Shown piece by piece: positions 2,841 through 33,930 of a DNA stretch of 64,000 bases. The DNA lies in sequence record OR449013; one strand, 5' to 3'. Both the position numbers and the translations under genes were made by a program. Source of the DNA: Escherichia phage Mangalyan. A model generated the notes under the pieces. It was not told where the DNA came from and ran no database searches. It saw nothing but the letters and a program-made list of their open reading frames with translations. Each line of letters starts with the position of its first letter. Position 1 is the first letter of the stretch.

Positions 2841-5800
2841 TATTCAACACTCTCCATCATAAGCTGGGTGTCTGTCAGTGCAGAGTTCCAAACTCTTATG
2901 TCCTTAATATGACCAAATAAGTGTCTTTCACCTGTCGCCGTTTGACCACCAATGCGGATGAAAGCGCCTCCTGCTAGGAATTCCCAAGAAGACTGCGTTT
3001 CCGTGCTCACCAGTCCGTTAGCAAAAGAGCAGGTTTTACCGTCATCTTTTATCCTGAACCCAATTTTCAATTTACGGGCTTTAGCCATCTCGTAAACACG
3101 TCTGTTTGACCCTCCAATATCACAGTATGGATAACCGTCCTTCGCAATATTTGTTGCAGAGCCAAACCCCATGATAAATGCAGCACCGGATTGATGACCC
3201 TCTGTATCAATAACCCTAGGGGCTGCGTTAGGAGCTTTGCCCCAGCCTCTCCAGTTGGCATCAACCGTAGCGGCGATAGTGAATGGTCTGGGCGCTAGGT
3301 TATCCGTCATTGGGAATTTACAAAGATCTGCCGCCCTGGTTACAGGTGAAGACCCTGTAGGGATAAACGAGGACTCACAAGATCCCAACTCAAACTGAGG
3401 TATTGCAACGTCAACCCAATCCCCTACGGCATGTTGAGAACTCTCCGGCGGGGCAATCTGGAACTGGCAACCGATATTCCTGTCAGAGGACACTGCCTCA
3501 AACGTAGCAACAACCCTTATCCAAGCAGGTCCGGCTGTTTGCCATCTCTCAGCTTTTACTTTAATTCTCCCCGCTGCAACACCTGTTGTTTTAACTTCAA
3601 GTGTTGACAGGTTAACATAAGCATCACCTTGAAATGTTGTGGTGGATCCGTCGTACATGTCGAATCTTATACGTAATCTCCGGTTCGCTTTACCTCCCCT
3701 TGCAATAATAGACCCAGTACAGAATTTCTCAGCACCTGTTACATCGGCACCTCTGGTGGCTGGAACTGTAGCAAGGTTTAACGCTGTTGTTTCCACACCG
3801 GATGCAGTGTTTACTGTAAATCTTGCACCTTTTGTGCCGTTGGTGTTTGTCACAGTACCACCAACAGTAATCTGTTGACTGGCTCCCCATTTACTAGGGT
3901 CTTCACTGTTAAGCATTAGGTTTGTCCTTTGCCCTTCAATAAGCAGACCATCTCTTTCAAAACGTGGTTGGTTTGCTTGTGCAACAGCCATAACACCACG
4001 CTTAGTGAAATAGGTTGCTGTAGAAGGTCTGGAGAAGACCATCTCACCTTCACCCAGTGCAGGTTTTAGGTTAGAGGTTAAAGGCAACCACAAGTCAGGC
4101 ATAACTGGAGCGGTGGTGTTTTCTGGGAAGCTTGTTCTCTTCCAAGGGCTCCAAGCCATTCCGCTGCCAAGGTTATTGTAATACCTTTCCCATGTTCCAC
4201 CAAGATACATTTTATATATCTGGATACAACCTGTTCCTTCGTTAGCGGAGTTTCTAAGAACGATCAGCGTACCAGCCATCTGCTGCCCTGGTGGGTAATT
4301 TCTTTCCGCTGTGGCGTTGGCATTTGCCTCTTGATGGTAAATCCCTTCACGATCTGCCTTGTAGTCGTTAAGGTCATTAGTTCCCAACCCTTGACCACGG
4401 TGCTGAATAACTTTGTTCCACGCTCTGTGGTTTCCCTGCTCTATGGAACGAGTGTACAGCTGATCTAAACGACCTGCCATCTGGAAAGCGTAGTTTCCAG
4501 AAAATGCCACAGACAACCCACCAACAACCATCGATCCTTCAGGTCCGTTGACATTGCCTGCCATTATTTTAGAAGGGTTGTTATTCCCGAACTGGTTGTT
4601 CCAGTCTGCACCTGTGTGGCATACAAAACCACCTGGTGCTGAGAAAGTACCATCCTTGTTGAAGTTGTAGAATCTATGAGCTGTGCCTACAACATCGCGA
4701 ACAATAACTTGACCCGCTTCCGGAGTAGATCTGAACTCTGCCTGACCTTTGAGACCAGCACCATTACCGCATTTAGAGGTAAACGTACCGTTAGTCAGAT
4801 CCTCTGTCCCATCGGATGCACACTGGAATCCTGCATTAGAGAATAACGCCTTTCTAGGACTGCCGTAGCACAAATAGTCAAGACCGTCTGCCCATAGCTC
4901 GACTTTTGGCATATTCATTTTGCTCATCACAGCATAGCGTTCAGCAGAACCTATATAGTGCCACTGTGTGCCGCCACCAGTGTAGAATCCTGAAGTACCT
5001 TTGAAGTCAACAATAGGTCTGGTATTGGTGTTGTTATCTCCAAGAATAGCAAGATTCAAATCTGCTGATTGAAGAGGTGCAACGAACTTAACCCCATCCT
5101 GATTGTTTGTTACAGAGCCGACTTGATAATCTTGCTCTCTGGTAAACACTTCGACAACATTTCTACTTGCGTATATGCTGACAGGGAAAGCACGAGCCTC
5201 TGCATAGAAAGCAACATACTCTTGTTTACCCCTTGTTGGAGCAACCATCCCAAGAAGTGCTTTTTCATTCTGGTAGAAATTTACTACCCCGTAGAAAGAG
5301 TCTCCCCTGTCCGTCCAGCCGCCAGTTCTATAGTGACACTGCAGGGTGGCACAGTTCATAGGGTCATTTCCAGATGAAGACCTGGTGACTATAGTAATAT
5401 CTGTACCTGTCGAATGGGCGTAATACGGATCTGTTCTAACGATGATTGGGTAGTATTTCCCATCTTCCATTCCTGCAGTTCTTGGCAGTGTTAAGAAGTC
5501 TTTTACACCTGCTGCTATAGGAACTTTGAACAGATTCTGAGCATCTGCTAAAGTTGTAGCCCCGGTGCCACCTGCGGCTTGAGGTAGAGGTTCCCACTTG
5601 GCCTTCCGGTTGTTATAAACACCCCATTCCAGAGTGCCGTTACCGGATTCGTCCATCTCACCATCCCAGATAACCATCTTGGCGGCTTTCTTGGACCCCC
5701 AGAAGCCTCTTTCTGCTCCTGAACTACGAATCCACTCTCCAAGTCCCCAGTTTGTCAGCTGACCAGTAAGATCCCCAACCTGCATGTATTTAGGACAGTC

Positions 5801-20579: not shown

Positions 20580-20594
20580 TCAACCCCCTTATTT

Positions 20595-21065
20595 TTACTG
20601 TCCGATTTTAAAGGTTGCAGATTCAAGCAGCACATCGTAATGCCGCATAGCCTCGTTGAAGCCCTTTTCTTGTGCCCACTGCTCACTAACAGTAGGATTA
20701 CTAAACTGACCAGCCTCAATAACAAACTGGATAGCTTTGGCCCCTGTGTCCCCCATCTGCTTAAGAATAGCCTCTGCACTTGATCCTCTAGCCATAGCTC
20801 TCAACAATTTTTCTGTCAAGGTCTGTAGTTGAGTGCTGTGAAATGCAAAGGCTGTCTCCATGAAATTGCGAACAGGCAGCCCGTTCCAACCGAAGTTGTG
20901 AATGGCTGCCAATGTTGCCATATTTAAGCCTGACGGGTGAGGTTCGTCATAAAAGCCGTAGGTTATTGTTTTACTTTCAAGTCTCACAAGTTCTTTGTAG
21001 AAGCTATCTAAACGCTTTAGGTTGAACCTTGTTTGACATTTAACCTTTAGCATTATATCCCTCAC
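20595..21065 (-). CDS. hypothetical head-tail protein
   Basis: 156-aa ORF. Confidence 0.4.
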   Translation of the reverse strand: MRDIMLKVKCQTRFNLKRLDSFYKELVRLESKTITYGFYDEPHPSGLNMATLAAIHNFGWNGLPVRNFMETAFAFHSTQLQTLTEKLLRAMARGSSAEAILKQMGDTGAKAIQFVIEAGQFSNPTVSEQWAQEKGFNEAMRHYDVLLESATFKIGQ

Positions 21066-21106
21066 TAATGTATTTTACCACAAAGATACATCAAAAGCAA
21101 CAATTT

Positions 21107-21727
21107 TTAAAAACTGCGTTTGCGTCTTGGGTGGCGAGGAGGTTGGTTATTTAGACCACTGATAGGTGTAATACCCTGGACATCGAACGGCCCGTTGCTG
21201 TTTTCATTAAATTTAACCCGAATTCCTTCATCTACACGAACACCACCAATGATAATCATTCTGCTGTAAGCATCTAGCTCAGAATCTACATAGTCAGGGT
21301 GTGCCAGCAGCCAATCAAGGAAATCTTTCCATTGGGCGTAGGAAGATCCACCACGAATCTCTATGGTCTCATCACCTATTTTTTCCAGACGGGAAGTTAT
21401 ACTTGCATTACCGCTGGAAACTTCCTGCATCATCAGCCATCGCACAAGCTGCACAAGCACATTGTACTTAAGCAGTGGTAGCTTATCAGGGTCTGCCGGA
21501 TAATTTAGTTTCAGCTTCTCCATATCAAGGAATGTTTTAATTACCTCATCAGGGAGTGTTTCCTCATCAACATTGCCAAGCAATAACCTCATAATATCAA
21601 TAAGAGGTTGGTCTGGATCAGGTTCCGGAGGTACAGGATCTTCTTTTGGTGGCTCTTCTGGGGTATCGACTACACCATCATGGTTAGGCGGGGACGGGAT
21701 AATATCTTCATCTTCATACCATGCCAT
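21107..21727 (-). CDS. hypothetical virion protein
   Basis: Track ORF 21107-21784; ATG at 21727 preferred (GAGGT SD). Confidence 0.4.
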   Translation of the reverse strand: MAWYEDEDIIPSPPNHDGVVDTPEEPPKEDPVPPEPDPDQPLIDIMRLLLGNVDEETLPDEVIKTFLDMEKLKLNYPADPDKLPLLKYNVLVQLVRWLMMQEVSSGNASITSRLEKIGDETIEIRGGSSYAQWKDFLDWLLAHPDYVDSELDAYSRMIIIGGVRVDEGIRVKFNENSNGPFDVQGITPISGLNNQPPRHPRRKRSF

Positions 21728-28379: not shown

Positions 28380-28698
28380 CGTTTATGTTCGGGCAAGGTC
28401 GCTAGTCTTGCCCCGCCATTTTCAGGCAGCTGCATGTCTCCATGCAGACCAGACTATATCTTATAAGCGACAAAAACCGCTTACCCTCCCGTTTCGAATC
28501 GCTTGATTCTACGTCTCTCGACTAGTCGTTGAACGTTCATCCTCTCGGATGCTTCGCTGCGGATTATCTAAATTAACACACTGTTACCATACCTTCGATC
28601 TCTCTTCGAAGCCTCTATAATGTTACCATGACAGGTTGGTGGTGTCAATAATAAAGATTTCCCCGCAATTAGGGAGGTTTTACGAGAGCTACAAATTA
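28380..28698 (-). ncRNA. group I intron (ORF-less) in terminase large subunit gene
   Basis: Minus-strand P (AATTGCGGGGAAA, 28656-28671), Q (AATCCGCAGC, 28551-28565), R (GTTCAACGACTAGTC, 28520-28534), S (AAGATATAGTCTGG, 28449-28462); P1 pairing exon GAGGGU with intron GCUCUC; in-frame TAA right after exon 1. Confidence 0.8.
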
Positions 28699-29124
28699 AC
28701 CCTCATCGAAGCAAACCATGGTGTACTCAAGCCCTTGGTGGTTAAGCTTATCTTGTACATACTCCATGTGGCAGTATTTTACAACAGCCCCCTTTTTGCT
28801 TCTATCCCACTTGCCAGTGTTCGGATCAAACCGTGGAAAAATGAACTTATGATCCTTCTCTCTGAACTTTGGCTTAATGTTTTCAGGCAGATCACTATAA
28901 ATAGCTACTGCTTTAGGCCATAGTCCACCCTCACCTTCCAACTGTGGGGTTGTTCTTCGGAACATAACCACAGAGCTGTGGGGGTCATCAATAATTTTAA
29001 GCGGCATCAACTGCAAGAGGAACGACTTGCCAGACCCAGCTGCACCGCCGATTACCAAAATATCTGCATCGTTTTCGAGGATCATCTTCTGCTTTTCAGA
29101 ACACGGTCCGTAAATCTTAGACAT
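28699..29124 (-). CDS. terminase large subunit, exon 1 (ATPase domain)
   Basis: Walker A GGAAGSGKS and Walker B VCFDEG; ORF terminates in intron. Confidence 0.8.
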
Positions 29125-30227: not shown

Positions 30228-30304
30228 TGGTCTCCACGGAGTGATTCGAACACTCGACCTCCTGATCCCAAATCAGGCGCTCTACCAAGCTGAGCTACGC
30301 GGAG
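30228..30304 (-). tRNA. tRNA-Pro (anticodon TGG)
   Basis: Cloverleaf folded by hand on minus strand: acceptor CTCCGCG/CGTGGAG, anticodon loop TTTGGGA, T-loop GTTCGAATC, encoded CCA. Confidence 0.8.
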
Positions 30305-30315
30305 TATTTACTATT

Positions 30316-30390
30316 TGGTGGCCCTGGGTGGAATTGAACCACCGTCTGGCGATTATGAGTCGCTTGCTTGAACCTTCCAGCTACAGGGCC
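30316..30390 (-). tRNA. tRNA-Met/fMet/Ile2 (anticodon CAT)
   Basis: Acceptor GGCCCTG/CAGGGCC, anticodon loop CTCATAA, T-loop TTCAATT, CCA encoded. Confidence 0.8.
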
Positions 30391-30391
30391 T

Positions 30392-30467
30392 TGGTGCTAA
30401 TGGCAGGACTTGAACCTGCAACCTATTGATTACAAATCAATTGCACTACCAATTGTGCTACATCAGC
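30392..30467 (-). tRNA. tRNA-Thr (anticodon TGT)
   Basis: Acceptor GCTGATG/CATTAGC, anticodon stem ATTGA/TCAAT with loop TTTGTAA, T-loop TTCAAGT, CCA encoded. Confidence 0.8.
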
Positions 30468-30472
30468 AAAAA

Positions 30473-30571
30473 GGTGCTAGGTGATGGAATCGAACCATCT
30501 ATGTATTCAACGACTACCTCGTCTATTTTCAGGATTAAAAATCCTCGCCCTTGCCAAAGGGCTTACCTAGC
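30473..30571 (-). ncRNA. atypical 99-nt tRNA-like gene (Lys-type UUU anticodon loop, ~30-nt variable region)
   Basis: Acceptor GCTAGGT/ACCTAGC, D-arm GCCC-TTTGGCAA-GGGC, anticodon loop TTTTTAA, canonical T-arm GATGG-TTCGATT-CCATC, but ~30 nt lie between anticodon stem and T-stem. Confidence 0.45.
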
Positions 30572-30669
30572 TCAGTATGTTGACCATGTTGCTAGTCGGC
30601 GATGACGACTGTAACATTTGATAATCCGGTTCTGCTTCCGGCTTTCGCTTAATTACAAGGTCAACAATG

Positions 30670-30760
30670 TGGCGGAGAGTAATGGAATCGAACCATCATC
30701 GAGTCATCCTCAATGGGACGGTTTTCAAGACCGCTTGAGCACCATTGCTCCCTACTCTCC
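30670..30760 (-). tRNA. tRNA-Ser (anticodon TGA), class II
   Basis: Acceptor GGAGAGT/ACTCTCC, anticodon loop CTTGAAA, long variable arm, T-loop GGTTCGATTCC, CCA encoded. Confidence 0.8.
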
Positions 30761-30874
30761 TTTATAAATTATACTGATAATGACACTGATTTTCGAGCAG
30801 TTAGTGACTAGTATAAACGACGATAAATATCAATGCCATTATCTGTATTATTTATGCATCTAAAAATATAAATT

Positions 30875-30961
30875 TGGTGGGGAGTGGTGGAGTCGAACCA
30901 CCCGAGTCGCAATGACAATAGATTTACAGTCTACACCGCTACCTCTACGGGATAACTCCCC
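30875..30961 (-). tRNA. tRNA-Tyr (anticodon GTA), class II
   Basis: Acceptor GGGGAGT/ACTCCCC, anticodon stem GTAGA/TCTAT with loop CTGTAAA, long variable arm, T-loop GGTTCGACTCC. Confidence 0.8.
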
Positions 30962-30965
30962 AATT

Positions 30966-31040
30966 TGGCACCCCGTACTGGACTCGAACCAGTGTCAACG
31001 GCTTAGAAGGCCGCTGCTTTATCCACTAAGCTAACAGGGC
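30966..31040 (-). tRNA. tRNA-Arg (anticodon TCT)
   Basis: Acceptor GCCCTGT/ACGGGGT, anticodon stem GCGGC/GCCGT with loop CTTCTAA, T-loop GGTTCGAGTCC. Confidence 0.8.
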
Positions 31041-31136: not shown

Positions 31137-31475
31137 TTAGCTATTGCTAACAGGCTGTATTTCTGTAGTAAATGGCATAAAAGGTGCTGGTTTTTCAGCC
31201 TCTTCTACTACCACCTCTTCCTCTTCACCAAACATCTCATCATATTCTTCCTGCATTCGGTCTGCCTTATCAAGAACATACTCTGCAATGCTTTGACGAA
31301 TATTTTGTTTGGTTTTCGGGTCCAACATCAGCTCTCTTAAAACTTTGTGAGCTTCTGGAACCATCGCTATAAAAGATTCCTTCATATCAAGGATGTTCTT
31401 CTCTAGCTGAATGGCGTTGGACTCCTCTTTCAGAGGTCTGCCTCTACGGCGACGCTTTTTAGTTGTATCCGCCAT
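31137..31475 (-). CDS. hypothetical basic DNA-binding protein (possible small terminase subunit or regulator)
   Basis: ATG at 31475 with GGAGGAAA SD (track ORF extends spuriously to 31595); N-terminal KKRRRRGRP basic tract, acidic C-terminus. Confidence 0.4.
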   Translation of the reverse strand: MADTTKKRRRRGRPLKEESNAIQLEKNILDMKESFIAMVPEAHKVLRELMLDPKTKQNIRQSIAEYVLDKADRMQEEYDEMFGEEEEVVVEEAEKPAPFMPFTTEIQPVSNS

Positions 31476-31486
31476 GTTTCCTCCAT

Positions 31487-31498
31487 TATCACGTGATA
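31487..31498. promoter_or_regulatory. perfect 12-bp palindrome TATCACGTGATA between promoter -10 and SD (candidate operator)
   Basis: Palindrome sits between the -10 element and the SD of the 31475 gene. Confidence 0.4.
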
Positions 31499-31503
31499 GG
31501 TGG

Positions 31504-31532
31504 ATTTTATCATAGCAAATACTGATTGTCAA
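31504..31532 (-). promoter_or_regulatory. sigma70-like promoter (TTGACA-17-TAAAAT)
   Basis: Minus-strand TTGACA (31532-31527) and TAAAAT (31509-31504) upstream of the 31475 gene. Confidence 0.5.
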
Positions 31533-31534
31533 GT

Positions 31535-31760
31535 TCGCCGCAGGGTGGTATTCCCTGCGACTTGTCCAGCGTCCTGGACCAGCAAGACCAAACAAGTGGG
31601 TTACCAGAGGCCTATTACCCGCGCTTCGGCTCGACCTTGTTACAGGTTGGCTGGGGTCACATCGTCATGTGCTGGCTGCCCCTACCATTTTAAGTGTGGT
31701 GCACTATCAAGCCCTCTAAGGGGAACTCAGCCTTCTCCGAACCCTGTTTCAAAGCATCCG
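31535..31760. other. GC-rich ORF-free island A (candidate structured RNA or regulatory element)
   Basis: Visibly GC-rich versus flanks; hairpins such as GCAGGG-TGGTATT-CCCTGC; only shadow ORFs. Confidence 0.3.
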
Positions 31761-31821
31761 GAGATAAAGCCATCAAATTCATCTTTAAATTGGATATTCA
31801 TCATGATACACGAAAACAACC

Positions 31822-32064
31822 TCATTGTAAAGCACAAATAAATAAAACATACTTAATTTGTTTGTTATCAGGCTCAGGGTAGAAGTAGAAGATCTTGCTA
31901 TCACCGATCTGAACACCACCATCCCAACAGCATAGCCCATAACCTGTATTCATACAAGCTAAGTCGTTGGCAAAATCTATTGCATCATCCAGTGCACGAA
32001 ATTCACCTTCATCTTCTAAATAATCCTCATTCATGGAACGAAAAACGAGCTTAACCTTAAACAT
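31822..32064 (-). CDS. hypothetical protein
   Basis: 80-aa ORF. Confidence 0.35.
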   Translation of the reverse strand: MFKVKLVFRSMNEDYLEDEGEFRALDDAIDFANDLACMNTGYGLCCWDGGVQIGDSKIFYFYPEPDNKQIKYVLFICALQ

Positions 32065-32918: not shown

Positions 32919-33039
32919 AGCTGCCTCCTCTTCAAGTTATAGAAAAACTCACTGTATCGCTTTGTAACGAGCTTTTCTATCAAACTGGTGCGATTGCATT
33001 ACCTGGTATAGTTTATATAGCTGTGGAGCGATTTAGGGG

Positions 33040-33290
33040 CCTTCTTGTCAGTTTCCACACATAAACTTCATCCAAGCTCGCGCGGGAGACTCTCAACCGA
33101 CTCCTTACGGCGCTGGCAAGCTTTCGTCGGTGGTCCACATCAGTGCTCGGCCTTTGGCCTGCGCTATAGCTTCGCTCCCACACATGTTAACAGACCTGCA
33201 TGTGTGCACTTCTGTTATTGTGTGCACCAAGGAGGCCCGGCATCTCGCCCCTCGTAGGCGAGTGCCAATGAAGGGCCGACACTGCCCATA
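33040..33290. other. GC-rich ORF-free island B (candidate structured RNA or regulatory element)
   Basis: Visibly GC-rich versus the adjacent AT-rich segment; several hairpins (e.g. CTCGCC-CCTCGTA-GGCGAG at ~33244-33262); only a low-complexity shadow ORF. Confidence 0.3.
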
Positions 33291-33300
33291 GTAAGTAATA

Positions 33301-33420
33301 AATTTAAAACATGGTACTTAGGATCTAGTATATTCTACATAAGTTAAGTATATGTACTTAGTACCATAAGTACTAGATCTTTTATTTTTTTATTATTTAG
33401 TTATTTTAGTTATATTCTTT
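33301..33420. promoter_or_regulatory. AT-rich segment with inverted repeats (candidate DNA unwinding element or promoter region)
   Basis: Inverted repeat GATCTAGTA (33322-33330) / TACTAGATC (33371-33379), repeated GTACTTAG motifs, poly-T/A tracts. Confidence 0.4.
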
Positions 33421-33423
33421 ATG

Positions 33424-33505
33424 TGTCCGTATCACGGACAGTTAGTGTCCGTATTACGGGCAGATGTGTCCGCGTGACGGACAGTAGTGTCCGTATCACG
33501 GACAG
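33424..33505. repeat. four tandem 17-bp palindromes (TGTCCGT-N3-ACGGACA) at 21-22-bp spacing
   Basis: Copies at 33424-33440, 33446-33462, 33467-33483, 33489-33505 (first and fourth identical); a degenerate fifth follows. Confidence 0.75.
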
Positions 33506-33579
33506 TTAATAGTATCCGTTCCATGGCGAACATAAAACATACGAATCCTTATAGTATAGATATTTAAGTTTTTACTGGT

Positions 33580-33930
33580 CTAACCAGTTGTTGACATCCG
33601 AATAACTTCTTCTGGTGGCAAAACTTTGGAAAATGTGCATCTTTTACCTCTCCCTTGTGTGGATGTTTCAACCACTCCTGCACATTCTAAAGTTTTAACG
33701 CACGCTGCTGCTTTTGTTTTCTTTATCCCAACATCTGCTGCAATTTTCCTTGTGCTTGGTGTGAAGCGTGAATTTCCTCCAAGCTTATACCAGTTGTGCA
33801 GGTAGCAGTATACGATCTTGTCATACAAGTCAAGAACAACAACCTCCCCAGTTGTGTCATTCAAAACTTTTGACATAGATAGTATTTCAAGGGGGACTTT
33901 AAGATATAGCAGCTTATCCCCATCTTTCAT
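33580..33930 (-). CDS. hypothetical DNA-binding protein (candidate binder of the adjacent palindromic repeats)
   Basis: 116-aa ORF with AGGAG SD; helix-turn-helix-like segment TPSTRKIAADVGIKKTKAAACVKTLECAGVV; repeats lie ~75 bp 3' of its stop. Binding is inference. Confidence 0.4.
   Translation of the reverse strand: MKDGDKLLYLKVPLEILSMSKVLNDTTGEVVVLDLYDKIVYCYLHNWYKLGGNSRFTPSTRKIAADVGIKKTKAAACVKTLECAGVVETSTQGRGKRCTFSKVLPPEEVIRMSTTG

What the first reader, a model, noticed from the sequence alone, without database searches (positions are those of the whole stretch)
31535..31760. GC-rich ORF-free island A between small minus-strand genes
A second GC-rich ~225-bp segment lacking a credible ORF on either strand, located upstream of the promoter/operator of the 31475 gene and a few hundred bp from the tRNA cluster. 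Phage tRNA regions sometimes carry small stable RNAs of unknown function, and two such islands bracketing a small-gene cluster is unusual.
Basis: seen in the sequence. Interest (0 to 1): 0.5.

Follow-up and report, generated by a model that had tools for sequence, protein, structure and literature searches.

The report
Widespread unannotated structured phage RNA
The GC-rich, gene-free stretch is a folded non-coding RNA on the minus strand whose three-way-junction core recurs, unannotated, in over a thousand phage genomes including T4, and what it does is unknown.

Summary
Window 31535-31760 has 56% G+C against a window mean of 43.6%, which makes it one of the two highest GC peaks. It has no conserved ORF and lies just upstream of the ORF74 promoter, about 500 bp from the tRNA cluster of an rV5-like phage.

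The island is a minus-strand structured RNA of about 190 nt (31537-31725). Its centre (31606-31654) is a three-way junction: a closing helix and a small hairpin that both covary, plus a near-invariant hairpin, AACCUGUARYAAGGUCRAG…CGGUAAU.

The same core occurs in 34 distinct sequences from about ten unrelated phage groups:
- rV5-like phages, and T4 itself (between denV and vs.8);
- Klebsiella and Vibrio phages, a 359-kb jumbo phage, a 45-kb phage, and marine contigs.

It is found in more than 1,000 GenBank phage records, always unannotated. It matches no Rfam 15 family, no E. coli genome, and none of 185,579 bacterial or archaeal genomes by exact pattern.

Context suggests a stand-alone small RNA tied to tRNA arrays. 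One clade has its own consensus promoter, some small phages have terminators around it, and other copies sit inside or beside tRNA clusters. Expression and function were not tested. Riboswitch-like, ribozyme and decoy roles remain open. Island B is unrelated.

The parts
31803..31831 (-). Promoter-like site TTTACA-17-TATCAT (TG-extended) at the end of ORF75. It is a possible start point for the island transcript in this clade.
   Evidence: It is kept as TTTACA-17-TATTAT in the diverged relative L004. Consensus match only; not shown to be active.
31727..31801 (-). Mini-ORF or spacer (24 aa from the ATG; 36 aa from an upstream TTG at 31837), ending in TGA just before the RNA. It contains a 21-nt block, AAAGATGAATTTGATGGCTTT, that is identical in the sister clade.
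   Evidence: In clade B the block is an 8-codon ORF, MKDEFDGF*, preceded by AAGGAG. It is probably not part of the RNA.
31681..31725 (-). 5' domain specific to the rV5-like clades. It has hairpin CCCC-UUAG-AGGG (31712-31723), hairpin AGUG-CACCA-CACU (31693-31705) and the single-stranded tract AAAAUGGUAGG (31681-31691).
   Evidence: It is 39/44 identical between clades A and B, whose flanking ORFs are 68-69% identical. In clade B it starts about 6 nt after the -10 element of TTGACA-17-TATACT.
31653..31682 (-). Hairpin H1: outer stem GGGG/CCCC, a 5' internal loop CAGCCAG, and inner stem CACAU-GACG-AUGUG.
   Evidence: Only 32% identical to clade B, yet the structure is kept by compensatory changes (GGAAC/GUUCC; CUACG-GACG-CGUAG). 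Every phage group has an analogous hairpin of unrelated sequence in this position.
31606..31654 (-). Universal three-way-junction core. Closing helix Pc is AGCC (31649-31652) with GGCC (31609-31612). Hairpin H2 lies within AACCUGUAACAAGGUCGAG (31630-31648). Hairpin H3 is G-C[CGAAGC]G-C (31621-31630). The junction is GGG-UAAU-A (31613-31620).
   Evidence: Covariance model R1 scores it 58.3 bits, E 1e-19, and it is the only strong hit in the window.
31537..31605 (-). 3' part specific to this clade. It has a CUGG tract, hairpin X CCCA-CUUGU-UUGG (31588-31600), hairpin Y GUCCAG-GACG-CUGGAC (31564-31579) and hairpin Z CGCAGGG-AAUACCA-CCCUGCG (31539-31559). No U-run follows.
   Evidence: Alignment of 15 clade A and B sequences. 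Hairpin Y is kept by a compensatory change in L004 (GCUCAG/CUGAGC). Hairpin X is deleted in L098. No terminator is found.
31504..31532 (-). P74 promoter TTGACA-17-TAAAAT. It drives ORF74 and bounds the RNA on its 3' side.
   Evidence: 11 of 12 matches. It is annotated as P74 in the rV5 record and conserved in clade B.

Best explanation
Island A encodes a structured non-coding RNA of about 190 nt, read from the minus strand. It belongs to a phage-only RNA family that has not been annotated in any record examined.

Shown:
- The family is defined by a three-way junction. The closing helix (Pc) and a 2-bp hairpin (H3) covary.
- The hairpin and junction sequence AACCUGUARYAAGGUCRAG…CGG(G)UAAU is almost invariant across unrelated phages. 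These include T4 (between denV and vs.8), rV5-like phages, Klebsiella, Vibrio and Aeromonas T4-likes, a 359-kb jumbo phage, a 45-kb phage and marine contigs.
- A variable hairpin (H1) always precedes the core.

Inferred from context:
- It is a stand-alone small RNA, not the leader of one particular gene.
- In rV5-like phages it is transcribed ahead of, or together with, the ORF74-tRNA operon and released by processing, much like the small stable RNAs of the T4 tRNA cluster.
- The invariant junction acts as a docking surface for a conserved partner: a host RNA-processing, translation or tRNA-directed factor, or a ligand.

The partner and the effect are unknown. The confidence given (0.5) is for the whole statement; that the island is a functional structured RNA of this family is about 0.9, the stand-alone, partner-docking mechanism about 0.4-0.5.
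For: Family and structure:
- The core was found with the exact pattern in 15 further IMG/VR contigs and 67 metagenome stretches.
- Model R1 separates true copies (55-71 bits) from anchor-only chance matches (31 bits or less).
- There are 34 distinct sequences. Pc pair 5-44 is CG:21, GC:11, AU:2 with none unpaired. Pc pair 6-43 is CG:28, UA:5, AU:1 with none unpaired. H3 pair 26-33 is CG:22, UA:5, GC:2.
- None of 500 shuffles reaches the observed covariation score. Sliding the partners by 1-3 columns drops pairing from 87.6% to 23-44%.
- G-U pairs (9 at Pc pair 4-45) fit only this strand.

Distribution:
- 1,067-1,119 phage records carry it, annotated 'none' or 'hypothetical'.
- T4 carries it.
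- There are no Rfam hits even at E<=10.
- There are 0 hits in E. coli genomes and 0 exact-pattern hits in 185,579 bacterial and archaeal genomes.

Stand-alone RNA:
- Clade B has TTGACA-17-TATACT immediately before the RNA and the separate P74 promoter after it.
- In phage Ivi the element lies between two hairpin-plus-U-run terminators, and the next operon has its own promoter.
- Hairpin-plus-U-run sites lie 115-210 nt downstream in L030, L032 and L040.
- Downstream genes are unrelated across groups.

tRNA link:
- The element starts 45-51 nt after a tRNA in L027 and L106, and lies inside a tRNA array in L068.
- It is about 560 nt upstream of tRNA-Arg in clades A and B, and within 0.85-1.3 kb of tRNAs in L034, L066 and L073.
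- In sister genera the homologous slot upstream of the ORF74 homologue holds tRNA genes.
Against: - No expression, end-mapping or stability data were available.
- Neither the window nor most groups have a terminator after the element, so it may stay part of longer mRNAs.
- In T4-like phages each copy sits at a fixed distance (about 75-85 nt) upstream of an ORF, with a conserved hairpin before the ribosome-binding site. Klebsiella phage pzk-kv4 has two copies, each before a gene. That pattern looks cis-regulatory.
- Single-sequence folding is not better than shuffles for the core (z -0.5 and +0.3) and only mildly so for the whole island (z -2.1).
- The invariance of the anchor is partly by ascertainment, because copies were collected with an exact pattern. 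The variants found otherwise change only 1-2 positions.
- The motif may already be listed among 10,006 unnamed viral candidate RNAs (PMC10690425). Those lists could not be read here.
Confidence: 0.5

Rival explanations
1. It is a cis-acting leader, either riboswitch-like or protein-binding. It would control translation, stability or read-through of the genes just downstream: ORF74 plus the tRNAs here, vs.8 or an ipII-like gene in T4-like phages.
For: - It is always on the same strand as the downstream genes, with an ORF 100-450 nt further on in most groups.
- In T4-likes there is a fixed spacing and a conserved hairpin, GCCA-YGGAA-UGGC, before the ribosome-binding site.
- Two copies sit before two genes in pzk-kv4.
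- Covarying stems around invariant junction bases is the classic aptamer pattern.
Against: - The downstream genes share no homology or function across groups.
- No terminator or RBS-sequestering helix overlaps the core.
- In clades A and B an independent promoter (P74) lies between the element and ORF74.
- In Ivi a terminator and a new promoter separate it from the next genes.
- In jumbo phages it follows tRNAs, with no ORF for about 400 nt.
Confidence: 0.2
2. It is a new class of self-cleaving or otherwise catalytic RNA that cuts polycistronic phage transcripts, for example separating tRNA precursors from mRNA.
For: - It is a compact three-way junction with near-invariant junction and loop bases and covarying helices.
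- It has no consistent gene association.
- It is confined to phages.
- It lies directly 3' of tRNAs in L027 and L106. From general knowledge, not tested here, this resembles HDV-like and hammerhead ribozymes that flank phage tRNAs.
- It is embedded in longer transcripts without terminators.
Against: - It matches no known ribozyme family in Rfam, even at E<=10.
- No cleavage site can be inferred.
- It occurs as one or two copies per genome rather than many.
- The evidence is purely circumstantial.
Confidence: 0.12
3. It is a decayed remnant of tRNA genes, a tRNA pseudogene left when the rV5 lineage reduced its tRNA array, with no function of its own.
For: - In PVP-SE1, 4MG, Mydo and Hena1 the slot upstream of the ORF74 homologue holds tRNA-Leu, tRNA-Arg and tRNA-Cys.
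- G+C is tRNA-like.
- The H2 loop reads CUGUAR, like positions 32-37 of a tRNA-Tyr anticodon loop (seen directly in the sequence).
Against: - ARAGORN and the Rfam tRNA model find nothing there.
- There is no similarity to the window's tRNAs, the PVP-SE1 array or T4 rnaC/rnaD beyond chance 9-10-mers.
- The core is conserved, with compensatory changes, across unrelated phages, which a decaying pseudogene would not show.
Confidence: 0.03
4. It is a protein-coding gene or degraded pseudogene, for example the 113-aa plus-strand ORF at 31500-31841.
For: An uninterrupted 113-aa ORF spans the island. Some GenBank records annotate small hypothetical proteins there. T4 annotates the vs.8 start inside its copy.
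Against: - No overlapping ORF has a Pfam or PHROG match.
- The ORFs are not conserved in clade B.
- 1-nt and 2-nt indels lie inside conserved blocks.
- Only a 48-nt core is shared with other phages, with variation in paired positions rather than third codon positions.
- The large protein-database search was not run.
Confidence: 0.02
5. It is a DNA-level element, such as a replication origin, a recombination or homing site, or a mobile promoter/stem-loop cassette of the kind described in T4-type genomes.
For: It is duplicated in pzk-kv4. Some copies lie near HNH or PD-(D/E)XK endonuclease genes (L040, L073). The sequence block is very conserved.
Against: - The G-U pairs are strand-specific.
- Helices covary, which DNA protein-binding sites do not need.
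- It has one or two copies per genome rather than dozens.
- There are no iterons or repeats.
Confidence: 0.03

Closest known systems
T4 small stable RNAs, species 1 and 2 (rnaC, rnaD), in the T4 tRNA cluster
   Same: They are phage-encoded, non-coding, of unknown function, and genomically tied to tRNA genes. They are presumably co-transcribed and processed with the tRNAs.
   Different: There is no sequence or structural similarity. Model R1 hits T4 only between denV and vs.8, not at rnaC or rnaD, and blastn finds nothing. T4 carries both kinds of RNA, and its copy of this motif lies about 6 kb from the tRNA cluster.
Orphan riboswitch-like motifs and three-way-junction aptamers (for example purine or TPP type architecture)
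   Same: Covarying helices surround highly conserved junction and loop nucleotides, and the element lies in intergenic regions on the sense strand.
   Different: There is no Rfam match. There is no recurrent downstream gene family and no expression platform overlapping the core. No ligand is known.
Small self-cleaving ribozymes in phages (hammerhead three-way junction; HDV-like ribozymes next to phage tRNAs)
   Same: It is similar in size, has a junction-centred conserved core, is enriched in phages, lacks gene association, and sometimes lies adjacent to tRNAs.
   Different: The core sequence differs from every ribozyme family in Rfam. Catalysis was not tested.
Lambda/HK022 nut and put antitermination RNAs
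   Same: In clade B the RNA begins right after a strong promoter and precedes a long, highly structured operon (ORF74 plus tRNAs). ORF74 has an N-terminal arginine-rich stretch reminiscent of N proteins. Small GC hairpins with 5-nt loops flank the core.
   Different: No boxA/boxB or put consensus was found. In T4 and the jumbo phages the element does not follow a promoter. The resemblance rests on recall and was not tested.

Membership tests
New phage three-way-junction RNA family (defined here, model R1) | Closing helix Pc, hairpin H2 within AACCUGUARYAAGGUC, RAG, 2-bp hairpin H3 with a 5-6-nt loop, then CGG(G)UAAU(R) and the return strand of Pc | tested here: met
   Window 31606-31654 (minus) scores 58.3 bits, E 1e-19. 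The other true copies score 55-71 bits and false anchor-only hits 31 bits or less. The window was one of the 29 sequences the model was built from, so its score is not independent.
New phage three-way-junction RNA family (defined here, model R1) | A variable hairpin H1 immediately 5' of Pc | tested here: met
   It is present in all groups, with compensatory changes within groups. A shuffle test on the outer stem alone is weak (combined p 0.056).
tRNA or tRNA-like RNA | Cloverleaf detectable by ARAGORN or the Rfam tRNA model | tested here: not met
   There are no hits in 31500-31800. There is no similarity to the window's tRNAs or the PVP-SE1 array.
T4 species 1 / species 2 RNAs (rnaC, rnaD) | Sequence or structure homology to rnaC or rnaD | tested here: not met
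   blastn finds no hits. Model R1 does not hit L041 9909-10172.
T4 species 1 / species 2 RNAs (rnaC, rnaD) | Accumulates as a stable processed RNA during infection | not testable with these tools
   No expression data were available.
Any Rfam 15 family (including group I intron, known riboswitches, ribozymes and sRNAs) | Covariance-model match at the gathering score, or at E<=10 | tested here: not met
   The window scan finds only a group I intron at 28430-28708 and tRNAs. Nothing is found in the island at E<=10. The same holds for the T4-like and other copies.
Riboswitch | Recurrent functional class of downstream genes | tested here: not met
   The downstream ORFs differ: ORF74, vs.8, an ipII-like gene, an SSB-like gene, an HNH gene, a PD-(D/E)XK gene, small terminase, and unknowns.
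Riboswitch | Expression platform (terminator or RBS-sequestering helix) coupled to the aptamer | tested here: inconclusive
   There is no terminator in the window or most groups. Terminator-like sites lie 115-210 nt away in four small-phage contexts, which is too far to overlap the core.
Riboswitch | Specific ligand binding | not testable with these tools
   This needs in-line probing or ITC.
Self-cleaving ribozyme | Site-specific self-cleavage | not testable with these tools
   This needs an in vitro transcription assay. No known class matches.
Protein-coding gene or pseudogene | ORF conserved in relatives, or a match to a protein family | tested here: not met
   plus frame-breaking indels. 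The 5.8-billion-protein search was not run.
Host-derived insert or repeat (REP or MITE-like) | Similar sequence in host genomes, or several copies in the phage | tested here: not met
   There is no match in 5,426 E. coli genomes. The window holds a single copy.

The most novel reading that the evidence does not exclude
The three-way-junction element is a new functional RNA class used by large virulent phages, T4 included. It would be either a new self-cleaving or processing ribozyme, or a decoy or sensor RNA whose invariant loop (CUGUAR, like a tRNA-Tyr anticodon loop) and junction engage a conserved host tRNA-directed or translation factor during takeover or counter-defence.
Probability: 0.15. 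Interest if true: 0.9.

Novelty: categorically new. Interest (0 to 1): 0.75.

Why it matters
If it is real, a conserved structured RNA has gone unannotated in the best-studied phage (T4) and in more than 1,000 sequenced phages, many of them therapy candidates such as the rV5-like phages. It has no counterpart in cellular genomes and no assigned family.

Near-invariant junction sequences shared by phages with unrelated genomes imply a common molecular partner. Finding that partner could reveal a new step in host takeover, tRNA or mRNA processing, or counter-defence.

The result also corrects annotation, such as the T4 vs.8 start and the small 'hypothetical proteins' called over the element. It supplies a covariance model and coordinates, so the question can be tested directly in T4, where genetics and public RNA-seq data exist.

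'Categorically new' is meant at the level of RNA family: a structured phage non-coding RNA is a familiar kind of object. The motif may also already sit, unnamed, in bulk lists of predicted viral RNAs.

Tried and rejected
- **Known families.** The Rfam 15 scans, at gathering score and at E<=10, found nothing in the island or in copies from other phages.
- **Island A versus island B.** They share no similarity.
- **Other Vequintavirinae genera.** nhmmer, blastn and model R1 found no copy within 3 kb of the ORF74 homologue in PVP-SE1, Mydo, 4MG or Hena1.
- **Pseudoknot.** Some cases look attractive: GUGAGGG/CCCUUAC in L005, GGGAG/CUCCC in L031, CUCCGG/CCGGAG in Ivi. A uniform shuffle test of pairing between the H1 internal loop and the sequence after Pc is not significant (Fisher p 0.23), so it is left as possible only.
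- **H1 outer stem.** A shuffle test on the outer stem alone is weak (p 0.056). H1 therefore rests on within-group compensatory changes.
- **rRNA mimicry.** GUAACAAGGU equals 16S 1497-1506, and CGCGGUAAU equals 16S 526-534. Shared k-mers are not longer than expected (p 0.05-0.2 against 16S, 0.13-0.46 against all rRNA). Rejected as chance.
- **Covariation in H2.** A relaxed pattern (NN in the 3' strand) returned only chance matches that model R1 rejects. H2 is sequence-constrained, so its pairing remains unproven.
- **Host or plasmid origin.** None was found.
- **Cellular homologues.** There were 0 exact-pattern hits in genome contigs.
- **tRNA remnant and similarity to T4 rnaC/rnaD.** None was found.
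- **Coding potential.** No support.
- **Thermodynamic folding.** Single-sequence folding is not informative.
- **Literature.** Seven full-text searches, including the literal core sequence, found no description. The supplement of the 10,006-candidate viral RNA catalogue is not held.

Full report
**What the window is.** The 501 bases around the finding match 118 phage records at 90% identity or better. All are rV5-like (Vequintavirus) genomes. On the minus strand the gene order is ORF75 (31822-32064), then the island, then promoter P74 (31532..31504), ORF74 (31137-31475), and seven tRNA genes (30228-31040). The rV5 and Gotham records annotate nothing between P74 and ORF75.

**Observation.**
- G+C of 31535-31760 is 0.562 against 0.436 for the window. 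Island A (0.57) and island B (0.60) are the two highest 200-nt GC peaks in 64 kb (sd 0.037).
- Mechanical ORFs overlap the island. None has a Pfam or PHROG match.
- None of those ORFs is conserved in the sister clade. The clades differ by 1- and 2-nt indels inside conserved blocks.
The functional unit is 31537-31725.

**First evidence for an RNA.**
- Four IMG/VR contigs (clade B: L005-L008) encode ORF74 and ORF75 at only 66-72% amino-acid identity, yet they keep an element of the same size between the two genes.
- Conservation is mosaic:
  - ORF75: 69% nucleotide identity
  - ORF74: 68%
  - 5' domain of the element: 89%
  - hairpin H1: 32%, with both stems rebuilt by compensatory changes (GGGG/CCCC to GGAAC/GUUCC; CACAU..AUGUG to CUACG..CGUAG)
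  - core: 70%
  - 3' part: 39%
- In clade B a near-consensus promoter, TTGACA-17-TATACT, ends about 6 nt before the first conserved hairpin. The separate P74 promoter follows the element.
- In the window a weaker TTTACA-17-TATCAT lies at 31831..31803.
- G-U pairs in the helices fit only the minus-strand transcript.

**The core is a widespread phage motif.**
- A 19-nt block of the island, AACCTGTARYAAGGTCRAG, was searched as an exact pattern. It occurs in 15 further unrelated viral contigs and in 67 metagenome stretches.
- About half of these continue with a small hairpin and CGG(G)TAAT. They fall into about ten groups:
  - rV5-like clades A and B
  - T4-like phages of two subtypes
  - a 359-kb jumbo phage and a relative
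  - several marine or freshwater contigs
- T4 itself has the motif directly after the denV stop codon. The T4 annotation of vs.8 starts inside it, while related phages keep only the downstream start MRTFLTGPYLS.
- blastn finds the element in 1,067-1,119 of 50,697 phage records. These include Tequatrovirus, Mosigvirus, Klebsiella, Citrobacter and Aeromonas T4-likes, Vequintavirus, 23 Vibrio phages and a 45-kb E. coli phage. Nearly all are annotated 'none' or 'hypothetical protein'.

**Structure.** The shared core is a three-way junction, with a variable hairpin H1 always preceding it:

`[Pc 5' strand]-AA-[H2: CCU-GUARYA-AGG]-UCRA-[H3: G-p1-(5-6 nt)-pN-C]-GG(G)UAAU(R)-[Pc 3' strand]`

On 34 distinct sequences aligned to covariance model R1 (the MAFFT alignment gives the same picture):

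| Pair | Observed pair types | Unpaired |
|---|---|---|
| Pc 5-44 | CG:21, GC:11, AU:2 | 0 |
| Pc 6-43 | CG:28, UA:5, AU:1 | 0 |
| Pc 4-45 | 25 of 34 paired (GU:9, AU:7, GC:7, CG:2) | 9 |
| H3 26-33 | CG:22, UA:5, GC:2 | 5 |

- None of 500 shuffles reaches the observed covariation score or the percentage paired. Sliding the partners by 1-3 columns drops pairing from 87.6% to 23-44%.
- Four of the five unpaired cells at pair 26-33 are one group whose 5-nt loop is placed one column off in the MAFFT alignment (seen).
- R1 scores true copies at 55-71 bits and anchor-only chance matches at 31 bits or less. The window has one copy, 31606-31654 minus, at 58.3 bits.
- H2 never varies. A relaxed pattern that allowed its 3' strand to change returned only chance hits. 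H2 is therefore sequence-constrained, and its pairing is an assumption.
- Variants found by other routes change only one or two anchor bases (pzk-kv4, Ivi, EP32B).
- Single-sequence folding energies are not informative.

**Not a known family, and not cellular.**
- Rfam 15 gives no match at gathering score or at E<=10, for the island or for copies elsewhere.
- There is no match in 5,426 E. coli genomes.
- A specific pattern (expected chance hits below 1 by my estimate) finds nothing in 185,579 bacterial and archaeal genomes.
- There is no similarity to T4 rnaC or rnaD, to the window's tRNAs, or to the PVP-SE1 tRNA array.
- Seven literature searches, including the literal sequence, found no description. 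A catalogue of 10,006 unnamed viral candidate RNAs exists but its lists are not readable here.

**Context and likely mode of action.**
- The downstream genes are unrelated across groups: ORF74, vs.8, an ipII-like gene, SSB-like, HNH, PD-(D/E)XK, small terminase, and unknowns. This argues against a gene-specific riboswitch.
- Three kinds of context point to a separate RNA product:
  - Clade B has its own promoter.
  - In phage Ivi the element lies between two hairpin-plus-U-run terminators after the lysis cassette, and the next genes have their own promoter. Hairpin-plus-U-run sites lie 115-210 nt downstream in L030, L032 and L040.
  - It is tied to tRNA arrays. It starts 45-51 nt after a tRNA in two jumbo-phage contigs, lies inside an array in L068, is about 560 nt upstream of tRNA-Arg in clades A and B, and is within 0.85-1.3 kb of tRNAs in three more groups.
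- In the sister genera of rV5 the slot upstream of the ORF74 homologue is occupied by tRNA genes.
- I therefore favour a stand-alone small RNA, transcribed with or ahead of the tRNA operon and released by processing, whose invariant junction docks a conserved partner. That part is inference.
- Against it: T4-like copies sit at a fixed distance before ORFs with a conserved hairpin in between; pzk-kv4 has two copies, each before a gene; and most groups, including the window, have no terminator.
- A new self-cleaving ribozyme would fit the phage-only distribution, the lack of gene association and the tRNA adjacency. It cannot be tested here.

**Clade-specific parts in the window.**
- The 5' domain (31681-31725) has two small hairpins plus AAAAUGGUAGG. 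It is shared only by clades A and B.
- A similar module, CCC-NUAGA-GGG-CUUGAAAGUGC, recurs 3' of the core in clade B.
- The 3' part in the window has three hairpins. Hairpin Y is supported by a compensatory change in L004, and hairpin X is deleted in L098.

**Rejected leads.**
- The pseudoknot between the H1 loop and the downstream sequence is not significant.
- rRNA mimicry is not significant.
- Also rejected: tRNA remnant, coding region, host-derived DNA, and relatedness to island B.

**Island B.** It shares no sequence with island A. It occurs only in Vequintavirus and is more variable than island A. It is absent from the sister-clade loci fetched and has no family match. It remains unexplained.

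**Verdict.** The island is a member of a new, widespread, phage-only structured RNA family that is also present in T4. Confidence that it is a functional structured RNA of this family is about 0.9. Confidence in the stand-alone, partner-docking small-RNA mechanism is about 0.4-0.5. The function is open.

Noticed in passing
window 33000-33320 (island B): A second GC-rich stretch (0.535-0.60) with only a 56-aa ORF (rV5 ORF78), which has no Pfam or PHROG match. It is unrelated in sequence to island A, is found only in Vequintavirus at 80-100% identity, and is absent from the sister-clade loci fetched.
   Followed up: partly
window 28430-28708 (minus): A group I intron (Rfam RF00028, 83.8 bits). 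The rV5 record joins its large terminase subunit from three pieces, which is consistent with introns in that gene.
   Followed up: no
window 30473-30571 (minus): A 99-nt tRNA-like gene that ARAGORN reports with a 4-base anticodon. Rfam tRNA gives 37.5 bits, and another record calls it tRNA-Lys(TTT) of 97 nt. It may be an intron-containing or otherwise unusual tRNA.
   Followed up: no
window 31137-31475 (minus), ORF74: A small protein with an N-terminal arginine-rich stretch (TTKKRRRRGRPLKEE) and an acidic C-terminus (phrog_3330, function unknown). Its homologues sit in the middle of the tRNA arrays of PVP-SE1, 4MG, Mydo and Hena1. It could be an RNA- or DNA-binding regulator of the tRNA operon.
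   Followed up: partly
window 31764-31784 (minus): The 21-nt block AAAGATGAATTTGATGGCTTT is identical between clades whose genes are about 68% identical. In the sister clade it forms an 8-codon ORF (MKDEFDGF*) with a strong Shine-Dalgarno sequence. In the window it is part of a 24- or 36-aa ORF.
   Followed up: no
window 31488-31497 (minus): The perfect palindrome ATCACGTGAT lies between the P74 -10 element and the ORF74 ribosome-binding site. It is a candidate operator.
   Followed up: no
window 33423-33444 and 33487-33508: A 22-nt exact direct repeat, with partial inverted copies nearby, between the HTH-domain gene (33580-33930) and island B.
   Followed up: no
L041 (T4 NC_000866) record 64,790-64,940: The annotated vs.8 CDS (64253..64912) begins inside the RNA motif. 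Related phages conserve only the downstream start MRTFLTGPYLS, so the T4 start is probably mis-assigned.
   Followed up: partly
L120 19955-20620 (Klebsiella phage pzk-kv4): Two diverged copies of the motif (48 and 34 bits) lie 530 nt apart. One precedes an ipII-like internal-protein gene and the other precedes the next annotated hypothetical-protein gene (20582-21163; not identified). A T4-early-type promoter-like sequence lies before the second copy.
   Followed up: partly
L121 3385-3660 (Escherichia phage Ivi): The motif lies between two hairpin-plus-U-run terminators after the lysis cassette. An annotated 38-aa CDS (3553-3669) overlaps the second terminator and is probably spurious.
   Followed up: partly
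search results: Eighteen records named 'Campylobacter phage', and one E. coli 'plasmid' (CP057073.1, 137,565 bp), are essentially rV5-like phage genomes. They are probably mislabelled or contaminant records.
   Followed up: no
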